Below are positions 11,517 to 56,674 of a DNA stretch of 64,000 nucleotides, piece after piece. The translations under genes were made by a program, and so were the position numbers. Source of the DNA: Escherichia phage vB_EcoM_ESCO47. Under the pieces are notes generated by a model. That model was not told the DNA's origin. It searched no databases and saw nothing but the letters and a program-made list of their open reading frames with translations. Every line of letters begins with the position of its first letter. The first letter of the stretch is position 1. The stretch lies in the sequence record OM386662.1; one strand, written 5' to 3'.

Positions 11517-13253
11517 TTACCCAATATCAATACGTGAACCGTCGATGGTGTATTGTCCTGAAGCGATGGAACTCATAGTGTTCATTGTTTCAGCCCAGTT
11601 CCCAGCCACAGTCATGTCAACGTTACCATTAACGGTCCATTTAACGTTACCATTAACAGTATAATCATGATTTCCTTCAACCTGAGTTTTAGCGTCACCT
11701 TTAACTAGGATATCGGCATTTCCATCAACAACAATTTTAATATTGCCTTTGACATAAAGTGTCCCATCACCTTCAACTGTTTTTACTTGGTCGCCTCTAA
11801 TAAAAATAGTGTCAGTGCCATCTATTTGATGGAGACGATTTGCCATGTTGTAATAAATTTCATCACAACCAACGTTAACTTTTTTATTACCGGAAACAAG
11901 GAAATTACCATCGCCGTTAGTTATATCGAAAAGGTCTTCAACTGTTTTACGAGTTTTACGTCCAGAAGGTGAAACCTCTTCATATGTTCCTGTTGGATGA
12001 ACTAAACGATACCGTTCTTGGCCAGGAGTATCATCGAATTCTTGGATATGACCACTTTCGGTTTCCATTGTATGAACATACGGATATTCGCCTTTATAAC
12101 TTGATTCCGGCTCTTTAAAAAGAATACGAGAATCAAAAGGAATAGGAGGCCCTGCAGGATCTTCTTCGTCATTAGAATTTGCTTTTACAAGATCAGCACC
12201 TACACCCGGTGATGGTGGAGTTTTAACAGGGACACCATACGATTCTAAGTTGCCTGTTAAAATAATCATTGTTACGCGAGACGCACGTCCTTTTGTTTGT
12301 TGGAACCATAAAGAATCACGTCCGGCTTTATATGCTGTTTTCCAATCACCTGCAGCCATGGCCGTAAGCATAGTATTAAATTTTGCTACACCGCCAACGC
12401 CCATCTGAAAACACATATTTTCTAATGCCATCTGACGAGATCTATTCATTTGAGCATAAACAGGACCCACCTTAGAGTTAGCCTTAATATCACGTTGCAT
12501 TTTAGCAATGTCTTTCTCAAATAAATTTGTAGCTTCTTCAAGTGTAATAGTTCCTGGGTTACCAGTTACTTCACGTCCTATTTGGTCAGAAAGAAGTTTA
12601 TTAATTTTTACCATATCACGAGTCTGTTCCATTGTGATAAGGTGTCCTATACCAATTGTAGGATAACCGAGATGATCCCAATAAACTTTATCACGAAGAC
12701 CTTCATCACGACGTAGCATTTCGGTTATTGTATAATTTGGATCATCGTCAGATGGAATATTGGCAATATCTGTATCATCAGGATTAATACCAACATCTAA
12801 GTTGTTGTCTTGAATAATGTTTGAAGTGGAATAATAACCTGCTTCTCCACCCTGGTTCAAAACGTTTGTGTCATTACCTAATCGACGCGGATACTGTCCT
12901 GTTGGGTCCGAAAATCCTTGAAGTCTATTCGGTTTCTCACGAACTATACCACCGTAAGTGCCTAAAACAATCCCATTTGTTTTCCATTTGTCTAAGAAAT
13001 GACCATATACTCTTGTTCCTTCAACTGGGCCTGTGACGGATCCACCAATACCTGACATAGCGGCAGAAGTTATAGGTTGGATAACTGTCATCCACGGAAG
13101 TTTCTCGGTAGGAATACCTTGAACATCACCTTGGGCTCTTTGCGCAGGATGAAGACCTATAACGCGTACACGTACACGTCCTTGTTTCAACGGGTCCATA
13201 CGATCTTCAACGACACCGACGAACCAATTTAAACTATTACTGATCATTTCCAT
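11517..13253 (-). CDS. 5: Baseplate hub / tail lysozyme gp5
   Basis: 578 aa MEMISNSLNWFVGVVEDRMDPLKQGRVRVRV...; OB-fold, lysozyme and beta-helix (VxGxxxxx repeats) as in T4 gp5. Confidence 0.9.
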   Translation of the reverse strand: MEMISNSLNWFVGVVEDRMDPLKQGRVRVRVIGLHPAQRAQGDVQGIPTEKLPWMTVIQPITSAAMSGIGGSVTGPVEGTRVYGHFLDKWKTNGIVLGTYGGIVREKPNRLQGFSDPTGQYPRRLGNDTNVLNQGGEAGYYSTSNIIQDNNLDVGINPDDTDIANIPSDDDPNYTITEMLRRDEGLRDKVYWDHLGYPTIGIGHLITMEQTRDMVKINKLLSDQIGREVTGNPGTITLEEATNLFEKDIAKMQRDIKANSKVGPVYAQMNRSRQMALENMCFQMGVGGVAKFNTMLTAMAAGDWKTAYKAGRDSLWFQQTKGRASRVTMIILTGNLESYGVPVKTPPSPGVGADLVKANSNDEEDPAGPPIPFDSRILFKEPESSYKGEYPYVHTMETESGHIQEFDDTPGQERYRLVHPTGTYEEVSPSGRKTRKTVEDLFDITNGDGNFLVSGNKKVNVGCDEIYYNMANRLHQIDGTDTIFIRGDQVKTVEGDGTLYVKGNIKIVVDGNADILVKGDAKTQVEGNHDYTVNGNVKWTVNGNVDMTVAGNWAETMNTMSSIASGQYTIDGSRIDIG

Positions 13254-13828
13254 TATGCGATCTCCATCTCACGAATCAAATCGGTAATAAAGGAGTTAAT
13301 ATCTTCTTTTGCCACAATTTTTATTTTACGTAATGCTTCGTTTTCAAGGACTGCCGCTTCATATGTATCAACTGCAGCTAAAGGACCTTTATACTGAGGA
13401 TATCTACGAGCTTTATCGCCCTTGTCATACCAAACTAATGGCTCATCAGGGTAAGAAACTAAATTATAAAATTTCTCACGATTTTCATTTATATGATAAA
13501 GAACTTGGTCTCCACCGGCATTAGCGTATTTTTGAATAGACGCTTGGTACGCCGCTTCTTGGGATGTAATCCAACCATAATACGGGTCGTAATTATCATT
13601 ACACATTAAAAGCACCCAGTACAACTGTGGATTGCCATAGATTTGGTTGGCTAGTTCTTCTGGGCGAGGAGAACCTTTAATATAATACGTACGTAATCTA
13701 TAATTGGCAGCAACGCGTTTAAAGTACTCTTTATAGTTACGAAATATATCAGTCATAGGAATAACAGGCGCATTCTTATCAATAGTTTTAGCACTGTACC
13801 CTATTGGATCAAAAAATGTAAAGAGCAT
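13253..13828 (-). CDS. 53: Baseplate wedge protein gp53
   Basis: 191 aa MLFTFFDPIGYSAKT...; T4 gp53-like; GGAGG RBS; divergent late promoter. Confidence 0.85.
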   Translation of the reverse strand: MLFTFFDPIGYSAKTIDKNAPVIPMTDIFRNYKEYFKRVAANYRLRTYYIKGSPRPEELANQIYGNPQLYWVLLMCNDNYDPYYGWITSQEAAYQASIQKYANAGGDQVLYHINENREKFYNLVSYPDEPLVWYDKGDKARRYPQYKGPLAAVDTYEAAVLENEALRKIKIVAKEDINSFITDLIREMEIA

Positions 13829-13850
13829 GGCTCCTCCAAGTATAAATTGG

Positions 13851-13858
13851 TATAAATA
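13851..13858 (+). promoter_or_regulatory. T4 late promoter (gene 4)
   Basis: TATAAATA about 27 nt upstream of gene 4 ATG. Confidence 0.65.
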
Positions 13859-13865
13859 ATAATAC

Positions 13866-13873
13866 TATTTATA
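13866..13873 (-). promoter_or_regulatory. T4 late promoter (gene 53), divergent from gene 4 promoter
   Basis: TATAAATA on minus strand about 38 nt upstream of gene 53 start. Confidence 0.6.
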
Positions 13874-13884
13874 AGGAGAACGCT

Positions 13885-14334
13885 ATGTCTTACTCTGGCA
13901 AATGGGTTCCCACCAATTTAAAAAAATATCGTGGAGATCCCACTAAAATTACATATAGGTCAAACTGGGAGAAATTTTTCTTCAATTATTGTGATAAAAA
14001 CCCTGACATCATTGCTTGGGGAAGTGAAACTGCGGTAATTCCATATTTTAGTAACGCAGACGGTAAGAAACGACGCTACTTCATGGATATATGGATGAAA
14101 GATGCTTCAGGCCAGGAGTTCTTTATAGAAATAAAACCAAAGAAAGAAACTCAACCACCTATTAAGCCTGTAAATCTTACAACTGCAGCAAAGAAACGTT
14201 ATATGAACGAGATCTATGTGTGGTCTGTTAACACAGATAAATGGAAAGCCGCGTCAGCGTTAGCAGAAAAGAAAAATATAAAATTCCGAGTTTTGACTGA
14301 AGATGGATTACGCAAACTTGGATACAAGGGGTAA
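13885..14334 (+). CDS. 4: Head completion protein gp4
   Basis: 149 aa [33 protein letters not shown]... matches recalled T4 gp4; late promoter TATAAATA at 13851. Confidence 0.9.
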
Positions 14335-14336
14335 TA

Positions 14337-15167
14337 ATGAGCATATTCCAACTAGTTACTGAAGGCACACAAGCCCCAAAGGTTGCACAGTCATTAAACG
14401 AAAAGAAATGGGTTGAGATTGGATTAGAATATAAGAAAGCTAAAGAGAAAGGAACCACCGCAAAGCAGTTTGCTGAAGCAAAAGGATTAAAATACTCATC
14501 CTTTACTGCAGCAATGTCTCGTTATGCATCGGCAATTAAACTTGCTCAAAAAATTGAAACACTTGAATCTAAACCTAAAAATAAACTTAGTAAACAAGAC
14601 CGCCAATTGATTATGATAAATTCATTTCGTAGCTCGATTAGAGAAAAAATCCGAAATGAAGGCGCAGCAGTTAATAACAAGTCAGCAAAATGGTTTGCTG
14701 ATACAATTAAAAAGAGTGTTAAAGGTCATAAGGTCGCAAAACCTCAACCTGGTAAAATTTATGCTTACATGTATGACGCAAAACATAAAGACACTCTCCC
14801 TTATTGGGATAAGTATCCTTTAATTATTTATTTAGGGCTAGGTAAACAAGGTTCAACTCCATTGATGTATGGATTGAACTTACACTATATTCCGCCTAAA
14901 GCTCGCCAACAGTTCCTTGAAGAATTGCTGAAGCAATATGCTAGCACGCCTACTATTACTAATAATACTAAGTTGAAAATCGACTGGAGTAAAGTGAAAG
15001 GTTTTAAAGGGACAGACAAGATGATTAAAGCTTATCTCCCTGGTCATATTAGAGGAACACTAATGGAAATAGCTCCTAAAGACTGGGCTAATGTAATTAT
15101 GTTACCTACTCAGAGCTTCCAATCTAAAGGAAAACGTTTCTCTGCTAATACCGTTTGGAAATCATAA
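14337..15167 (+). CDS. 2: DNA end protector protein gp2
   Basis: 276 aa, basic; size and synteny match T4 gp2 (274 aa). Confidence 0.75.
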
Positions 15168-15903: not shown

Positions 15904-16635
15904 ATGGAACTAATCTTCTTAAGTGGTCTCAAACGCAGTGGTAAAGACACTACAGCAGACTACATCAATTCAAACTTTAAATCCATTAAATACCAATTGG
16001 CCGCACCGCTAAAAGACGCTCTAGCTATTGCATGGGCTCGCAAACACGACGAAAATCCGGATGTGTTCATTGAATTAAAATATGAATATTTTGAAGGTGT
16101 CGGGTATGATCGTGAAACACCATTAGACCTTAACAATTTAGACGTTATTGAACTAATGGAAGAAGCTATTACTTATTTGCAAAAGTGTTATTTGCCTATA
16201 GGTGATATTAAAATACTGTCGGCTGGAGACGAATACTCTTATTTAGATGTTAAATCCTACAATGCTCTGCGAGACGTTATAAATAAAATCAACGACACAT
16301 GGTCTATCCGCCGTCTTATGCAAGCCCTCGGTACGGATGTTGTTGTTGATTTATTTGACCGTATGTATTGGGTTAAGCTTTTTGCATTAAACTATATGGA
16401 TTATATTGGAAGTGATTTTGATTACTACGTTGTAACCGATACACGCCAAGTCCATGAAATGGAAACCGCTAGAGCGATGGGTGCTACAGTTATTCACGTA
16501 GTTCGCTCTGGACAGGAATCCAATGATACACATATTACAGAAGCTGGGTTGCCTATTGAAGAAAGCGACCTGGTTATTACAAACGACGGCTCCCTAGAAG
16601 AGCTTTATTCTAAAATTGAAACTATCTTAAGGTAA
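15904..16635 (+). CDS. 1: Deoxynucleoside monophosphate kinase gp1
   Basis: P-loop SGLKRSGKDTTAD; sequence close to recalled T4 gp1. Confidence 0.9.
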   Translation: MELIFLSGLKRSGKDTTADYINSNFKSIKYQLAAPLKDALAIAWARKHDENPDVFIELKYEYFEGVGYDRETPLDLNNLDVIELMEEAITYLQKCYLPIGDIKILSAGDEYSYLDVKSYNALRDVINKINDTWSIRRLMQALGTDVVVDLFDRMYWVKLFALNYMDYIGSDFDYYVVTDTRQVHEMETARAMGATVIHVVRSGQESNDTHITEAGLPIEESDLVITNDGSLEELYSKIETILR

Positions 16636-29267: not shown

Positions 29268-29570
29268 ATGAAAACATATCAAGAATTTATTACTGAAGCG
29301 CGAGTGAGTGCAGGTAAATTAGAAGCCGCTATAAATAAAAAGGCCCATTCATTTCATGATTTGTCCGATAAAGACCGTAAGAAACTTGTAAGCCTTTATA
29401 TTGACAAAGAGCGTATTCTCGCTCTTCCTGGCGCTAATGAAGGTAAACAGGCCAAGCCTTTGAATGCTGTCGAAAAGAAAATTGATAACTTTGCTTCTAA
29501 ATTTGGTATGTCTATGGATGACCTTCAGCAAGCGGCTATCGAAGCAGCTAAAGTAATTAAAGGTAAATAA
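29268..29570 (+). CDS. Internal head protein family member with capsid targeting sequence
   Basis: N-terminus MKTYQEFITEA. Confidence 0.65.
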   Translation: MKTYQEFITEARVSAGKLEAAINKKAHSFHDLSDKDRKKLVSLYIDKERILALPGANEGKQAKPLNAVEKKIDNFASKFGMSMDDLQQAAIEAAKVIKGK

Positions 29571-49944: not shown

Positions 49945-50505
49945 ATGACTAATGTAAAGTTAACCAAAAATAACTATGTAAATAACAAAGAGCTTCTCGC
50001 TGCTATAACGGAGTGGAAAAAGGAGCTCCTAAATAATAAAGACCATAATAAAATTGTTCGACAGAATGATACAATAGGGTTGGCAATTATGCTAATTGCT
50101 GAAGGTCTCTCTAAACGTTTTAACTTTTCAGGATACACCCAGTCTTGGAAACAAGAAATGATTGCCGACGGAATTGAAGCTTCTATTAAAGGACTTCATA
50201 ATTTTGATGAGACTAAATACACTAACCCACATGCATACATAACTCAAGCTTGTTTTAATGCTTTTGTCCAACGTATCAAAAAAGAGCGTAAGGAAGTTGC
50301 AAAGAAATATAGTTACTTCGTTCATAATGTCTATGACAGCCATGACGATGATATGGTAGCGTTGGTAGATGAAACCTTTATTCAGGACATTTACGATAAA
50401 ATGACGCATTACGAAGAATCTGCTTATAAAGCTCCTGGGGCTGAAAAGAAGGAAACTGTTCGCGATTCACCAAGTTTGGATTTTTTATATGAGGACGACA
50501 ATTGA
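49945..50505 (+). CDS. 55: Late-transcription sigma factor gp55
   Basis: [20 protein letters not shown]...[47 protein letters not shown] matches recalled T4 gp55; start set at MTNVKL with AGAGGT RBS. Confidence 0.9.
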
Positions 50506-52841: not shown

Positions 52842-54526
52842 AATCATTTAAATTAAATCGTGTTCGTTATAAAAATATAATGTCTGTTGGGCAAAATTTT
52901 ATCGATATCCAATTAGATAAAGTCCAAAAGACCTTAATCACAGGTAAAAATGGTGGTGGTAAATCTACGATGTTAGAAGCCATCACTTTTGGACTTTTCG
53001 GCAAACCATTTCGTGATGTTAAGAAAGGACAAATCATTAATAGCACGAACAAGAAAGAGCTCTTAGTTGAGCTTTGGATGGAATTCGATGATAAAAAATA
53101 CTTCATCAAACGAGGTCAAAAGCCCAATATTTTCGAAATCTCCGTTGACGGTGTTCGTCTCGATGAATCTGCCAGCAGTCGTGACTTCCAAGAAGAATTT
53201 GAACGTAGCATCGGAATGTCCTATGCGTCTTTTAAACAAATCGTCGTTCTTGGTACAGCAGGGTATACCCCTTTCATGGCTCTTAGCACCCCAGCTCGTA
53301 GAAAACTTGTCGAAGACCTTTTAGAAGTCGGCACACTCGCTGAAATGGATAAAATCAATAAGTCTCAAGTTCGCGAACTTAATTCCCGGGGGCAAGTTCT
53401 CGATGCCAAGAAAGATGGTGTTATCCAACAAATTAAGATTTATAATGAGAATATCGAACGTCAAAAGAAATTATCCGGTGATAATGTAGCTCGTCTACAG
53501 AATATGTATGATGACCTGGCTAAAGAAGCTCGGTCATTAAAAGCAGAAATCGAAGAAGCTAATGAGCGACTACTTAATATCGTTCTTGACGAAGACCCTA
53601 CTGAGGCATTCAACAAGATAGGACAAGAAGCATTATTGATTAAATCTAAAATTGACTCATATAACAAAGTTATTAAGATGTATCATGACGGCGGTACATG
53701 TCCTACTTGTGCATCACAGTTGCACCAGGGTGATCCTATTGTCTCTAAGATTACCGATAAGCTTCATGAATGTAATCACTCATTCGAGCAACTTACCTGT
53801 CACAGAGATAATCTGAGTGTCCTAGTGGACGAATATAGAGCTAATGTTAAGACTAAACAGGACCTTGCATCTGATATTCGTACCAAGAAACAAGCAATGA
53901 TTGCCACTATTGATAAAGCTAAGAAAGTTAAAGCTGCAATAGAGCAAGCCTCAGCAGAATTTATCGACCATGCCGATGAGATAGCTTTGCTTCAAAAAGA
54001 ACTTGATAAAATCATTAAAACAAAATCGGATATCGTTCTTGAAAAATACCATCGTGGTATTATCACAGATATGTTAAAAGATTCTGGTATTAAAGGTGCT
54101 ATCATTAAAAAATATGTGCCTCTGTTCAACAAGCAGATTAACCATTACCTTAAAATCATGGAAGCTGATTACGTGTTTTCTATTGATGAAGAATTCAATG
54201 AATCTATAAAATCCCGTGGTCGTGAAGATTTTAGTTATGCTTCATTTAGCCAAGGTGAAAAAGCACGTATTGATATCGCTTTATTGTTCACATGGCGAGA
54301 TATTGCTGAAAAGGTTTCTGGTGTTAGAATCAATACATTAATTATGGACGAAGTCATGGATTCCGCGACTGATTCTGAAGGTATTAAAGCTATTTCAACA
54401 ATTCTTAACTCTCTAACCGATGCAAACGTGTTTATAATTAGTCACAGAGACCATGACCCACAAGCTTATGGACAACATCTTCAAATGAGCAAAGTTGGAC
54501 GATTTACTGTAATGAAAGCCTCTTAA
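52838..54526 (+). CDS. 46: Recombination endonuclease subunit gp46 (Rad50/SbcC-like ATPase)
   Basis: Walker A GKNGGGKST, long coiled coil with CPTC zinc hook, signature SQGEKARIDIAL, Walker B LIMDEV; 562 aa. Confidence 0.95.
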   Translation: MKSFKLNRVRYKNIMSVGQNFIDIQLDKVQKTLITGKNGGGKSTMLEAITFGLFGKPFRDVKKGQIINSTNKKELLVELWMEFDDKKYFIKRGQKPNIFEISVDGVRLDESASSRDFQEEFERSIGMSYASFKQIVVLGTAGYTPFMALSTPARRKLVEDLLEVGTLAEMDKINKSQVRELNSRGQVLDAKKDGVIQQIKIYNENIERQKKLSGDNVARLQNMYDDLAKEARSLKAEIEEANERLLNIVLDEDPTEAFNKIGQEALLIKSKIDSYNKVIKMYHDGGTCPTCASQLHQGDPIVSKITDKLHECNHSFEQLTCHRDNLSVLVDEYRANVKTKQDLASDIRTKKQAMIATIDKAKKVKAAIEQASAEFIDHADEIALLQKELDKIIKTKSDIVLEKYHRGIITDMLKDSGIKGAIIKKYVPLFNKQINHYLKIMEADYVFSIDEEFNESIKSRGREDFSYASFSQGEKARIDIALLFTWRDIAEKVSGVRINTLIMDEVMDSATDSEGIKAISTILNSLTDANVFIISHRDHDPQAYGQHLQMSKVGRFTVMKAS

Positions 54527-55239
54527 TGAGGCTTATGTTTACAGTTATCAAAATGCCAACGATGCATATTAGCAGGGATCCCTATTTTATCGCAATGAGG
54601 ACATTTAATTTTCTTGTCCTCTTTTTTCTTTCTGTTAGGATTTGATTTACAGAATTTTATATGCGGCTTTAACGCCGATAACTTAGTAGTTAAGCCACAA
54701 AACGGGCAAGAATCTTCTTTCCAAATTTTCGTGGCCATGGTTTTAATTATTTTATCCTTTGTTTCTTGATCAAGTTTTACTATTTTAGGCGTAGGGCCTT
54801 GTTTACAGTTATCAAAATGCCAACGTCTCATGTTTCCTTCAGTGCCAGTTAAACCGCAGTGTGGACATGTAATCTTTGGTTTATTTTTTGCAGACTCGGA
54901 CATTTTCTTACGAGTTTCAGCAGTGAATTCTTTGTTCTTTTGAACTTCTTGATTCTTACGTCGAAGCCATCCAAATAATTTGTTTTTGCTTCTATCTGCT
55001 TTAGGAGATGAGATAGTCATCATACGAGCAGCATATATTAAAGAGGCATTATCTGGATGGATTTTTACTAGCAGTTGATGTGCCAAATAATGTTCTTCTG
55101 GTGTTAAATCTACTAAGTTTAAAGCATCATCACTTCCACCTAAACATTGTGGTATAATGTAATGACGTTCTGTATAACCATCTAAACTTCTTGATTTAGC
55201 ATTGGTGATAAGCTTTTCGTATATTGAGTTATAATTCAT
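54523..55239 (-). CDS. Free-standing HNH homing-endonuclease-like protein with triple zinc-finger repeats
   Basis: N-terminal HNH-like ERHYIIPQCLGGSDDALNLVDLTPEEHYLAH; three CPHCG...WHFDNCK repeats; opposite strand to neighbours; AAGGA RBS. Confidence 0.7.
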   Translation of the reverse strand: MNYNSIYEKLITNAKSRSLDGYTERHYIIPQCLGGSDDALNLVDLTPEEHYLAHQLLVKIHPDNASLIYAARMMTISSPKADRSKNKLFGWLRRKNQEVQKNKEFTAETRKKMSESAKNKPKITCPHCGLTGTEGNMRRWHFDNCKQGPTPKIVKLDQETKDKIIKTMATKIWKEDSCPFCGLTTKLSALKPHIKFCKSNPNRKKKEDKKIKCPHCDKIGIPANMHRWHFDNCKHKPH

Positions 55240-55284: not shown

Positions 55285-55292
55285 TATTTATA
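55285..55292 (-). promoter_or_regulatory. T4 late promoter (HNH endonuclease gene)
   Basis: TATAAATA on minus strand 46 nt upstream of the HNH gene start. Confidence 0.5.
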
Positions 55293-55987: not shown

Positions 55988-56674
55988 ATGAAACTGACTA
56001 AAGACACCATCGCTATTCTTAAAAACTTTGCTTCCATTAACTCTGGTGTCATGCTTACTCCAGGTAAGTTTATTATGACTCGGGCTATTAACGGAACCAC
56101 ATATGCTGAAGCAACTATTACTGACGAAATTGATTTTGAAGTTGCTCTTTATGACCTTAACAGTTTTTTAAGTATTCTGAGTCTTGTTTCTGATGATGCA
56201 GAAATTTCTATGAATGAAGACGGTAATATTAAAATCGCCGACACTCGTTCTACTGTTTACTGGCCAGCCGCAGACAAGAGTACAATCGTATTCCCTAACA
56301 AACCAATTCAGTTCCCGGTAGCATCGGTTATCACTGAAATTAAAGCTGAAGACCTTCAGCAATTGCTTCGAGTTTCACGTGGACTCCAGATCGATACAAT
56401 TGCTATCACTAATAAAGATGGTAAAATCGTTGTAAATGGTTATAACAAAGTTGAAGACTCTGGTCTTACTCGTCCTAAGTATTCTTTGACTCTGACTGAT
56501 TATGATGGTTCTAATAACTTCAACTTTGTAATCAATATGGCTAACATGAAAATTCAACCAGGCAATTACAAAGTTATGCTCTGGGGAGCTGGTGATAAAG
56601 TTGCAGCCAAGTTCGAAAGCTCTCAAGTTAGTTATGTTATTGCAATGGAAGCTGATTCCACTCACGATTTCTAA
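55988..56674 (+). CDS. 45: Sliding clamp gp45
   Basis: MKLTKDTIAILKNFASINSGVMLTPGKFIMTRAINGTTYAEA... matches recalled T4 gp45; 228 aa. Confidence 0.95.
   Translation: MKLTKDTIAILKNFASINSGVMLTPGKFIMTRAINGTTYAEATITDEIDFEVALYDLNSFLSILSLVSDDAEISMNEDGNIKIADTRSTVYWPAADKSTIVFPNKPIQFPVASVITEIKAEDLQQLLRVSRGLQIDTIAITNKDGKIVVNGYNKVEDSGLTRPKYSLTLTDYDGSNNFNFVINMANMKIQPGNYKVMLWGAGDKVAAKFESSQVSYVIAMEADSTHDF

What the first reader, a model, noticed from the sequence alone, without database searches (positions are those of the whole stretch)
13829..13884. Back-to-back late promoters for genes 53 and 4
TATAAATA boxes on opposite strands (13851-13858 plus strand, 13866-13873 minus strand) lie 8 bp apart in a 56-bp intergenic region, each followed by a good ribosome-binding site. 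This reproduces the T4 divergent late-transcription unit and marks the switch between the baseplate module and the head-completion module.
Basis: partly seen in the sequence, partly recalled or inferred. Interest (0 to 1): 0.3.

Follow-up and report, generated by a model that had tools for sequence, protein, structure and literature searches.

The report
Overlapping divergent T4-type late promoters
The 56-bp gap between the baseplate gene 53 and the head-completion gene 4 of this T4-like phage holds two exact late-promoter boxes on opposite strands, the same arrangement as in phage T4 and its relatives, so the finding is real but ordinary.

Summary
Exact TATAAATA boxes lie at 13851-13858 (+) and 13866-13873 (-) in the 56-bp gap between gene 53 (13253-13828, -) and gene 4 (13885-14334, +). 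Each gene has a strong Shine-Dalgarno sequence.

Two corrections:
- The gap between the boxes is 7 bp, not 8.
- The boxes are not back-to-back. The + box lies left of the - box, so each promoter fires through the other. Predicted starts are A13864 (+) and A13860 (-), giving about 5 nt of overlapping 5' ends.

The pair is not chance. Eight of the window's 10 exact boxes sit 24-45 nt upstream of a same-strand ATG, against a 4% background. Both boxes appear together in no more than 0.08% of shuffles of the gap.

T4, RB69 and fPS-65 carry the same TATAAATA-N7-TATTTATA-AGGAG. A face-to-face pair recurs in 50 of 63 distinct gp4-upstream gaps, out to marine T4-likes. The window encodes gp55 with all promoter-contact residues identical to T4, and the gp45 clamp.

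The RB69 pair was predicted in 2006 and the fPS-65 pair is annotated. Verdict: an orthologue of the known T4 gene 4/53 late-promoter pair. Low interest. No transcript data were available.

The parts
13829..13884 (.). 56-bp divergent intergenic region between gene 53 and gene 4. It is a quasi-palindrome made of two start codons, two SD sequences and two late boxes.
   Evidence: Single-strand DNA fold z = -3.46.
13851..13858 (+). Late promoter box TATAAATA (positions -13 to -6) for gene 4 and the downstream genes 2 and 3. Predicted +1 is A13864. The box ends 26 nt before the ATG.
   Evidence: Exact in 19 of 20 distinct enteric T4-like intergenic sequences. The -13 to -6 rule is from PMC1524935. 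gp55 contacts at -12, -9 and -8 are from PMC7892883.
13866..13873 (-). Late promoter box TATAAATA on the - strand for gene 53 and the downstream baseplate genes. Predicted +1 is the A opposite T13860. The box ends 37 nt before the ATG.
   Evidence: Exact in 15 of 20 distinct sequences, with the tolerated A(-13) variant AATAAATA in 4 more. It is the only exact - strand box between 4596 and 13866.
13859..13865 (.). 7-bp A/T-rich spacer (ATAATAC) holding both predicted start sites. The two transcripts would overlap at 13860-13864.
   Evidence: Direct reading. Spacer length varies from 7 to 15 bp in enteric relatives and from 11 to 29 bp in the more distant, mainly marine, T4-likes.
13874..13879 (+). 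Shine-Dalgarno AAGGAG of gene 4, directly abutting the - strand box.
   Evidence: Conserved position in T4 and RB69.
13831..13837 (-). Shine-Dalgarno GGAGGAG of gene 53.
13253..13828 (-). Gene 53, baseplate wedge subunit (191 aa).
   Evidence: phrog_232 E = 1e-70. Pfam Phage_gp53 E = 1.7e-90.
13885..14334 (+). Gene 4, head completion/closure protein (149 aa).
   Evidence: phrog_218 E = 8.7e-61. 84% identical to T4 gp4 and 91% to RB69 gp4.
13841..13848 (+). Near-box TATAAATT (7 of 8 positions), probably not functional.
   Evidence: Not conserved in RB69 (TATGAAATT) and absent from T4.
49945..50505 (+). gp55, the late sigma factor that reads the boxes.
   Evidence: phrog_234 E = 3.9e-68. 88% identical to T4 gp55, with N13, L54, R57, F86, H95, Y97, T99 and R114 invariant.
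55988..56674 (+). gp45 sliding clamp, the activator of late transcription.
   Evidence: phrog_223 E = 1.5e-85. Pfam gp45-slide_C and DNA_PPF.

Best explanation
These are two gp55-dependent T4-type late promoters that share one 23-bp core (TATAAATA-N7-TATTTATA) and fire in opposite directions through each other.

Host RNA polymerase carrying the phage sigma factor gp55 opens the DNA at a box by reading the non-template strand. This is established for T4 and inferred here.
- From the + box it should start at about A13864 and transcribe genes 4, 2 and 3.
- From the - box it should start at about the A opposite T13860 and transcribe gene 53, gene 5 and the downstream baseplate genes.

Each box abuts the other gene's Shine-Dalgarno sequence. 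The crossed layout therefore fits two promoters and two roughly 20-30 nt leaders into 56 bp.

A late open complex plus its clamp covers about 60 bp, which is essentially the whole gap. From this I infer that only one of the two promoters can be occupied at a time. They would compete for initiation, but elongating polymerases move apart and never collide.

Activation by the gp45 clamp, with gp33, depends on clamp orientation. I infer that clamps loaded on opposite strands serve the two promoters.
For: - Exact boxes at the stated coordinates.
- Box-to-ATG distances of 26 and 37 nt fall inside the 24-45 nt range of the other gene-proximal boxes in the window. Eight of 10 boxes are gene-proximal against a 4% background.
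- One-mismatch variants are not gene-proximal in the first 18 kb of the window that was checked, so the exact motif is the signal.
- Both boxes together are very rare in shuffles of the region.
- The intergenic region has no sigma-70 -35/-10 pair and, by direct reading, no TGCTT MotA box.
- T4, RB69 and fPS-65 have the identical core. The RB69 pair was predicted by an HMM in the Nolan 2006 supplement.
- Across 20 distinct enteric T4-like gaps the boxes persist while the spacer and flanks change.
- Among 63 distinct gp4-upstream divergent gaps, 50 have a face-to-face pair. This includes marine T4-likes whose - strand neighbour is gp48 instead of gp53.
- The window encodes gp55 with every DNA-contact residue identical to T4, and gp45.
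- Mechanistic facts come from PMC2988020 and PMC7892883.
Against: - There are no transcript 5' ends for this phage. I could not retrieve mapped 5' ends for the T4 gene 4/53 pair: Miller 2003 is not held, and the T4 dRNA-seq start-site table is not in the held supplement.
- The review cautions that not all 50 listed T4 late sites are proven active in vivo.
- Whole-window octamer counts are not above chance.
- Mutual exclusion and clamp-orientation selectivity at this pair are inference only.
- For T4 the exact 6-nt rule lands on T rather than A on both strands, so start sites are good only to about ±1 nt.
Confidence: 0.9

Rival explanations
1. The palindrome itself is the functional unit. It could be a dyad-symmetric protein-binding site, such as an A/T-binding protein like DsbA. 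It could also be a hairpin in read-through RNA that hides the Shine-Dalgarno sequences and start codons. In T4, early oriE/repE transcription antisense to genes 5 and 53 heads toward gene 4. Transcripts started at the late promoters inside the hairpin would be translatable, as I recall is known for other T4 genes such as e, soc and 49.
For: - The 56-bp region folds far better than shuffles as single-stranded DNA (z = -3.46).
- A + strand read-through RNA folds with z = -2.44 and pairs the gene 4 SD and AUG, while the late-initiated leaders are unremarkable (z = -0.1 and -0.5).
- T4 annotates oriE, repEA and repEB on the strand that runs toward gene 4. The review says oriE depends on an early promoter.
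- DsbA sites overlapping two late promoters are mentioned in PMC2988020.
Against: - The symmetry follows automatically from two identical boxes, two SDs and two start codons in divergent orientation, so it carries no independent information.
- Spacing between the arms varies from 0 to 29 bp across relatives. That does not fit a fixed dimer site.
- The same octamer works singly upstream of 6 other genes in the window.
- Whether early read-through reaches this gap is unknown for this phage.
- At most this would be an added layer, not a replacement for promoter function.
Confidence: 0.1
2. Only one of the two boxes is a working promoter. The other is tolerated sequence, with its gene expressed from elsewhere or by read-through.
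For: - The - box degenerates to AATAAATA in 4 of 20 enteric relatives and both boxes are lost in L027.
- The review warns that not all listed T4 sites are proven active.
- Steric competition could make one promoter dominant.
Against: - Both boxes are exact here and in T4 and RB69.
- A(-13) is a common functional variant: 9 of the 50 T4 sites, and noted in Nolan 2006.
- No other exact - strand box exists between 4596 and 13866, and no gene-proximal one-mismatch box exists on either strand upstream of genes 53 or 4 apart from TATAAATT at 13841. Each gene block therefore has no alternative late promoter.
Confidence: 0.07
3. Chance A/T-rich sequence, or sigma-70 early or MotA-dependent middle promoters, rather than late promoters.
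For: - TATAAATA contains a -10-like TATAAA.
- The octamer count over the whole window is at the chance level.
Against: - The gap has no -35 partner and no TGCTT MotA box (reading).
- The pair is rare in shuffles.
- Placement of boxes relative to starts is highly non-random.
- The pair is conserved down to 42-50% gp4 identity.
- The genes served encode virion structural proteins.
Confidence: 0.02

Closest known systems
Phage T4 gene 4 / gene 53 intergenic late-promoter pair (NC_000866.4 77338-77384)
   Same: - Same flanking genes and gene order.
- Same core TATAAATA-N7-TATTTATA, followed directly by AGGAG and the gene 4 ATG.
- Same crossed, face-to-face geometry.
   Different: - The T4 gap is 47 bp, against 56 bp here.
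- The spacer sequence differs (TATTATC against ATAATAC).
- The extra bases here lie between the gene 53 SD and the + box. They include a 7/8 near-box (TATAAATT) and a small CCAA...TTGG stem.
RB69 predicted late promoters Pl:80613 (+) and Pl:80684 (-) (Nolan et al. 2006, PMC1524935, Additional file 5), and the fPS-65 'predicted late promoter' features
   Same: - RB69 is among the closest relatives in the collection (about 85% nucleotide identity).
- It has the identical 23-bp core, including the ATAATAC spacer.
- The two published 43-nt promoter windows overlap each other across the gap between genes 4 and 53.
- fPS-65 annotates boxes with the same 15-bp offset.
   Different: - The RB69 gap is 61 bp and its gene 53 is annotated with a TTG start.
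- These are computational predictions too, not mapped starts.
Generic T4 late promoter (gp55 / gp33 / gp45 system), for example P23
   Same: - An 8-bp TATAAATA at -13 to -6.
- An A/T-rich stretch before +1.
- No -35 element.
- A cognate gp55 and gp45 are encoded.
   Different: P23 and most late promoters are solitary. Here two promoters share the same DNA on opposite strands, so their open complexes cannot coexist (inference).
Back-to-back CTAAATA pairs of Aeromonas/Vibrio T4-like phages (loci L028-L032, including a 244,834-bp contig I take from memory to be KVP40)
   Same: Divergent late-promoter pair at the same junction between gp4 and the baseplate genes.
   Different: - The box order is reversed: TATTTAG-N0-9-CTAAATA, truly back-to-back.
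- The consensus is CTAAATA.
- The - strand neighbour is gp48, not gp53.

Membership tests
T4-type (gp55-dependent) late promoter | TATAAATA on the non-template strand about one helical turn upstream of the start (-13 to -6) | tested here: met
   Exact 8/8 matches on both strands. Consensus and position are from PMC1524935 and PMC2988020.
T4-type (gp55-dependent) late promoter | No conserved -35 element, and not a sigma-70 or MotA promoter | tested here: met
   The sigma-70 scan finds no hexamer pair inside 13829-13884. No TGCTT in the gap or at about -30 of either box (reading).
T4-type (gp55-dependent) late promoter | A/T-rich segment between the box and +1 | tested here: met
   The + promoter has ATAATA (6/6 A/T). 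The - promoter has GTATTA (5/6 A/T). The feature is described in PMC2988020.
T4-type (gp55-dependent) late promoter | Placed a short leader's distance upstream of a late (virion) gene on the same strand | tested here: met
   26 nt to the gene 4 ATG and 37 nt to the gene 53 ATG. Other boxes in the window lie at 24-45 nt. The genes are gp4 head closure and gp53 baseplate wedge.
T4-type (gp55-dependent) late promoter | The phage encodes the cognate sigma factor gp55 with its promoter-contact residues, and the gp45 clamp | tested here: met
   gp55 lies at 49945-50505, is 88% identical to T4, and has N13, L54, R57, F86, H95, Y97, T99 and R114 invariant (residues from PMC7892883). gp45 lies at 55988-56674. 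gp33 was not looked for; from my recollection of the T4 map its gene lies far from this region, so it is probably outside the window.
T4-type (gp55-dependent) late promoter | Primary 5' ends appear late, and depend on gp55 and on replication or gp45 | not testable with these tools
   No transcript data for this phage. The T4 dRNA-seq start-site table (GSE255091, preprint 10.1101/2024.04.04.588121) is not in the held supplement.
Orthologue of the T4 gene 4/53 divergent late-promoter pair | Same flanking genes, same box order (+ box nearest gene 53, - box abutting the gene 4 SD) and same 7-bp spacing | tested here: met
   Side-by-side sequences of the window, T4, RB69 and fPS-65.
   The + box (13851-13858) lies left of the - box (13866-13873). 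Each box is therefore inside the other's initial transcribed region, and the predicted starts cross at 13860 and 13864.

The most novel reading that the evidence does not exclude
The crossed pair acts as a direction switch set by DNA replication. The two open complexes exclude each other, and gp45 activates only the promoter whose non-transcribed strand carries the loading site. The balance between the baseplate operon (53, 5 and downstream) and the 4-2-3 operon would then depend on which strand carries the clamps left behind by forks passing this locus. In T4 the locus lies about 2 kb from oriE. A second, compatible layer is also possible: the quasi-palindromic read-through RNA could silence translation of gene 4 from early antisense transcripts.
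Probability: 0.1. Interest if true: 0.45.

Novelty: already known. Interest (0 to 1): 0.12.

Why it matters
It matters little beyond correct annotation. It fixes the probable 5' ends of two late operons in a phage that is only about 85% identical to the RB69-like phages, its closest relatives in the collection. It also corrects the geometry: the promoters are crossed, not back-to-back.

The comparative by-product is mildly useful. The divergent late-promoter pair at the junction between gp4 and the baseplate genes is kept across the T4 superfamily, including marine T4-likes. The spacing varies from 7 to 29 bp. One clade (Aeromonas/Vibrio phages) has flipped the pair to a true back-to-back CTAAATA palindrome. 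That makes the locus a convenient natural series for testing how overlapping clamp-activated promoters compete.

Tried and rejected
- **Whole-window enrichment of TATAAATA.** Not significant (10 found, 8.4 expected). I replaced it with a positional test.
- **One-mismatch boxes in the first 18 kb.** Essentially none is gene-proximal, so they add no promoters.
- **Sigma-70 promoter reading.** No hit inside the gap.
- **Literature for mapped T4 gene 4/53 5' ends.**
  - Miller et al. 2003 (PMC150520, PMID 12626685) and Vaiskunaite et al. 1999 (PMC94188) are not held.
  - The T4 GenBank and RefSeq records carry no promoter features here.
  - The T4 dRNA-seq preprint's held supplement has no coordinates 7735x-7737x.
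  - Searches for T4 start-site mapping or overlapping divergent promoters returned nothing specific.
- **Hairpin or terminator reading.** The fold z-scores are explained by the forced symmetry of two divergent promoter and ribosome-binding-site sets. The terminator-like hit at 13836-13820 is weak (z = -0.12 in context).
- **oriE-type 12-nt iterons in gene 5 of the window.** Only one 13-nt two-copy repeat was found.
- **RepEB.** The equivalent frame has an in-frame stop.

Full report
**What is in the sequence**

The window is a T4-like (Tevenvirinae) phage. Its closest relatives in the phage collection are RB69-like Mosigvirus phages, at only about 85-86% nucleotide identity. That holds over the 1,082-bp locus and over the first 25 kb.

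The ORF at 13253-13828 (-) is gp53, the baseplate wedge subunit (phrog_232 E = 1e-70; Pfam Phage_gp53 E = 1.7e-90). The ORF at 13885-14334 (+) is gp4, head closure (phrog_218 E = 8.7e-61). gp2, a tail protein at the position of T4 gene 3, and dNMP kinase follow on the + strand. gp5 follows on the - strand.

The gap 13829-13884 is 56 bp and reads GGCTCCTCCAAGTATAAATTGGTATAAATAATAATACTATTTATAAGGAGAACGCT.
- TATAAATA is at 13851-13858 on the + strand and at 13866-13873 on the - strand.
- AAGGAG lies 5 nt before the gene 4 ATG.
- GGAGGAG lies 2 nt before the gene 53 ATG.

**Geometry**

The + strand box is the left one and the - strand box is the right one. Each promoter therefore points at the other and transcribes through it. 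The box occupies -13 to -6 (Nolan et al. 2006, PMC1524935). This agrees with gp55 pockets for the bases at -12, -9 and -8 in the cryo-EM structure (PMC7892883).

The predicted starts are A13864 on the + strand and the A opposite T13860 on the - strand. The two RNAs would share about 5 nt of complementary 5' end. 'Back-to-back' is the wrong word; the pair is face-to-face, or crossed. Each box directly abuts the other gene's Shine-Dalgarno sequence. This is how two promoters and two leaders of roughly 20-30 nt fit into 56 bp.

**Is it more than chance?**

The octamer is not enriched in the window as a whole (10 found, 8.4 ± 2.9 expected). Placement is another matter.
- Eight of the 10 copies lie 24-45 nt upstream of a same-strand ATG. 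Only 4.1% of positions and strands qualify. My binomial arithmetic gives about 3e-10, with the caveat that gaps between genes are A/T-rich.
- The two boxes of the finding, at 26 and 37 nt, sit inside that range.
- One-mismatch variants in the first 18 kb are almost never gene-proximal.
- Shuffling the 56-bp region itself, whose composition already includes the boxes, yields both boxes in 0.0085% of mononucleotide and 0.08% of dinucleotide shuffles.
- No sigma-70-type -35/-10 pair falls in the gap, and there is no TGCTT MotA box.

**Comparative evidence**

T4 reads CAT-gggccctcctgtt-TATAAATA-tattatc-TATTTATA-aggagaatcca-ATG. RB69 has the identical 23-bp core, including the ATAATAC spacer. In Yersinia phage fPS-65 the two boxes are annotated 'predicted late promoter', with the same 15-bp offset. 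The supplement of Nolan et al. 2006 lists RB69 Pl:80613 (+) and Pl:80684 (-). Their 43-nt windows overlap across the RB69 gap between genes 4 and 53.

I fetched 88 IMG/VR loci encoding gp4 relatives. Among the 20 distinct enteric T4-like gaps between genes 53 and 4:
- the + box is exact in 19;
- the - box is exact in 15 and is AATAAATA in 4 more;
- the spacer changes in sequence and in length (7, 9, 10, 14 or 15 bp), and so do the flanks.

A at -13 is a recognised variant: 9 of the 50 T4 sites have it (PMC2988020).

Over all 63 distinct gp4-upstream divergent gaps, 50 show a face-to-face pair. This includes marine T4-likes with only 42-50% gp4 identity. There the spacer is mostly 15-29 bp, the - box abuts the gp4 ATG, and the - strand neighbour is gp48 rather than gp53.

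The Aeromonas/Vibrio clade (L028-L032) instead has a true back-to-back pair built from the CTAAATA variant, TATTTAG-N0-9-CTAAATA. CTAAATA is the late consensus reported for Aeh1.

In four loci (L015, L018, L033, L034) a roughly 600-700-bp insertion sits between the pair and gene 4. Its ORF matches phrog_655 homing endonucleases in the two loci tested (L018, L033). In at least three of the four loci it uses what was gene 4's ribosome-binding site.

**Machinery**

The window encodes gp55 at 49945-50505 (phrog_234 E = 3.9e-68). It is 88% identical to T4 gp55. Every residue shown to contact the -10-like element or the template strand (N13, L54, R57, F86, H95, Y97, T99, R114) is invariant, and so is the C-terminal SLDFLYE clamp-binding segment. 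gp45 lies at 55988-56674. The same promoter specificity as in T4 is therefore expected.

**Mechanism**

Established for T4 (PMC2988020; PMC7892883):
- gp55-RNA polymerase recognises the box only on opening.
- There is no -35 contact.
- gp45, loaded at nicks or primer junctions, slides to the polymerase and sits about 13 bp upstream of it together with gp33.

Inferred here:
- The footprint of an activated complex at either promoter covers nearly the whole gap, so the two promoters cannot be occupied together and must compete for initiation.
- Polymerases then leave in opposite directions, so there is no collision.
- Clamps of opposite orientation serve the two promoters.

None of this was tested.

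**Rival readings**

The region is a quasi-palindrome. The single-strand DNA fold has z = -3.46. A + strand read-through RNA folds with z = -2.44 and pairs the gene 4 SD and AUG, while the late-initiated leaders are unstructured. T4 places oriE, repEA and repEB on the strand that runs toward gene 4. A gate on translation of early read-through RNA is therefore conceivable.

However, the symmetry is forced by two divergent sets of box, SD and start codon. The arm spacing varies from 0 to 29 bp among relatives, and the octamer also works singly elsewhere. The palindrome adds no independent evidence. The readings in which only one box is active, or in which the pair is chance, are disfavoured by conservation and by the lack of any alternative late box for either gene block.

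**What could not be done**

I found no mapped 5' ends for this pair. Miller et al. 2003 and Vaiskunaite et al. 1999 are not held. The T4 records carry no promoter features. The T4 dRNA-seq start-site table is not in the held supplement. The review itself warns that not all 50 listed T4 late sites are proven active.

**Verdict**

This is a real, conserved, functionally coherent feature, and the orthologue of the long-known T4 gene 4/53 late-promoter pair. Novelty: already known. Interest: low.

Noticed in passing
window 13841-13848 (+): TATAAATT, a 7/8 late-box 2 bp to the left of the exact + box. RB69 has TATGAAATT here and T4 lacks the segment, so it is probably inert.
   Followed up: partly
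window 13836-13820 (-): On the gene 53 mRNA a 6-7 bp hairpin pairs the SD (AGGAG) and the AUG with codons 2-3 and is followed by a U-run. The scan flags it as terminator-like. In context its fold is no better than shuffles (z = -0.12). T4 has the same N-terminal codons (MLFTFFDP).
   Followed up: partly
window 11969-12118 (+) and about 13112-13228 (+): These lie antisense to gene 5. A RepEA-like ORF is intact (60% identity over 40 aa to T4 RepEA). The frame equivalent to T4 RepEB carries an in-frame stop. No oriE-type iteron cluster was found.
   Followed up: partly
window 54523-55239 (-) and 55285-55292 (-): A phrog_655 homing endonuclease gene lies on the opposite strand between gp46 and gp45. 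It has its own exact late box 45 nt upstream of its start.
   Followed up: partly
loci L015, L018, L033, L034 (about 800-1530): A roughly 600-700-bp insertion lies between the late-promoter pair and gene 4. Its ORF matches phrog_655 homing endonucleases in the two loci tested (L018, L033). In at least three of the four loci it takes over gene 4's ribosome-binding site. Gene 4 then starts at an overlapping stop/SD (…TGTAAGGAG…ATG).
   Followed up: partly
loci L028-L032, 60-100 nt upstream of gp4: Aeromonas/Vibrio-type T4-likes have a true back-to-back pair, TATTTAG-N0-9-CTAAATA, which is a perfect 14-bp palindrome in L029-L031. It lies between gp48 and gp4.
   Followed up: partly
loci L038-L090, upstream of gp4: In marine T4-likes the - strand box abuts or overlaps the gp4 start (TATTTATATG), with no Shine-Dalgarno sequence. 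The spacer to the + box is mostly 15-29 bp.
   Followed up: no
window 16278-16285 (+) and 29330-29337 (+): Two exact TATAAATA copies lie inside ORFs (the dNMP kinase gene and a 100-aa ORF). They are 354 and 565 nt from the next same-strand start, so they are either internal late promoters or chance.
   Followed up: no
window about 13000-14500: AT skew flips from about -0.06 to between +0.15 and +0.20 across the junction of genes 53 and 4. This matches the switch of coding strand.
   Followed up: no
locus L001 2074-2076 (RB69): RB69 gene 53 is annotated with a TTG start and a 61-bp gap, whereas the window and T4 use ATG.
   Followed up: no
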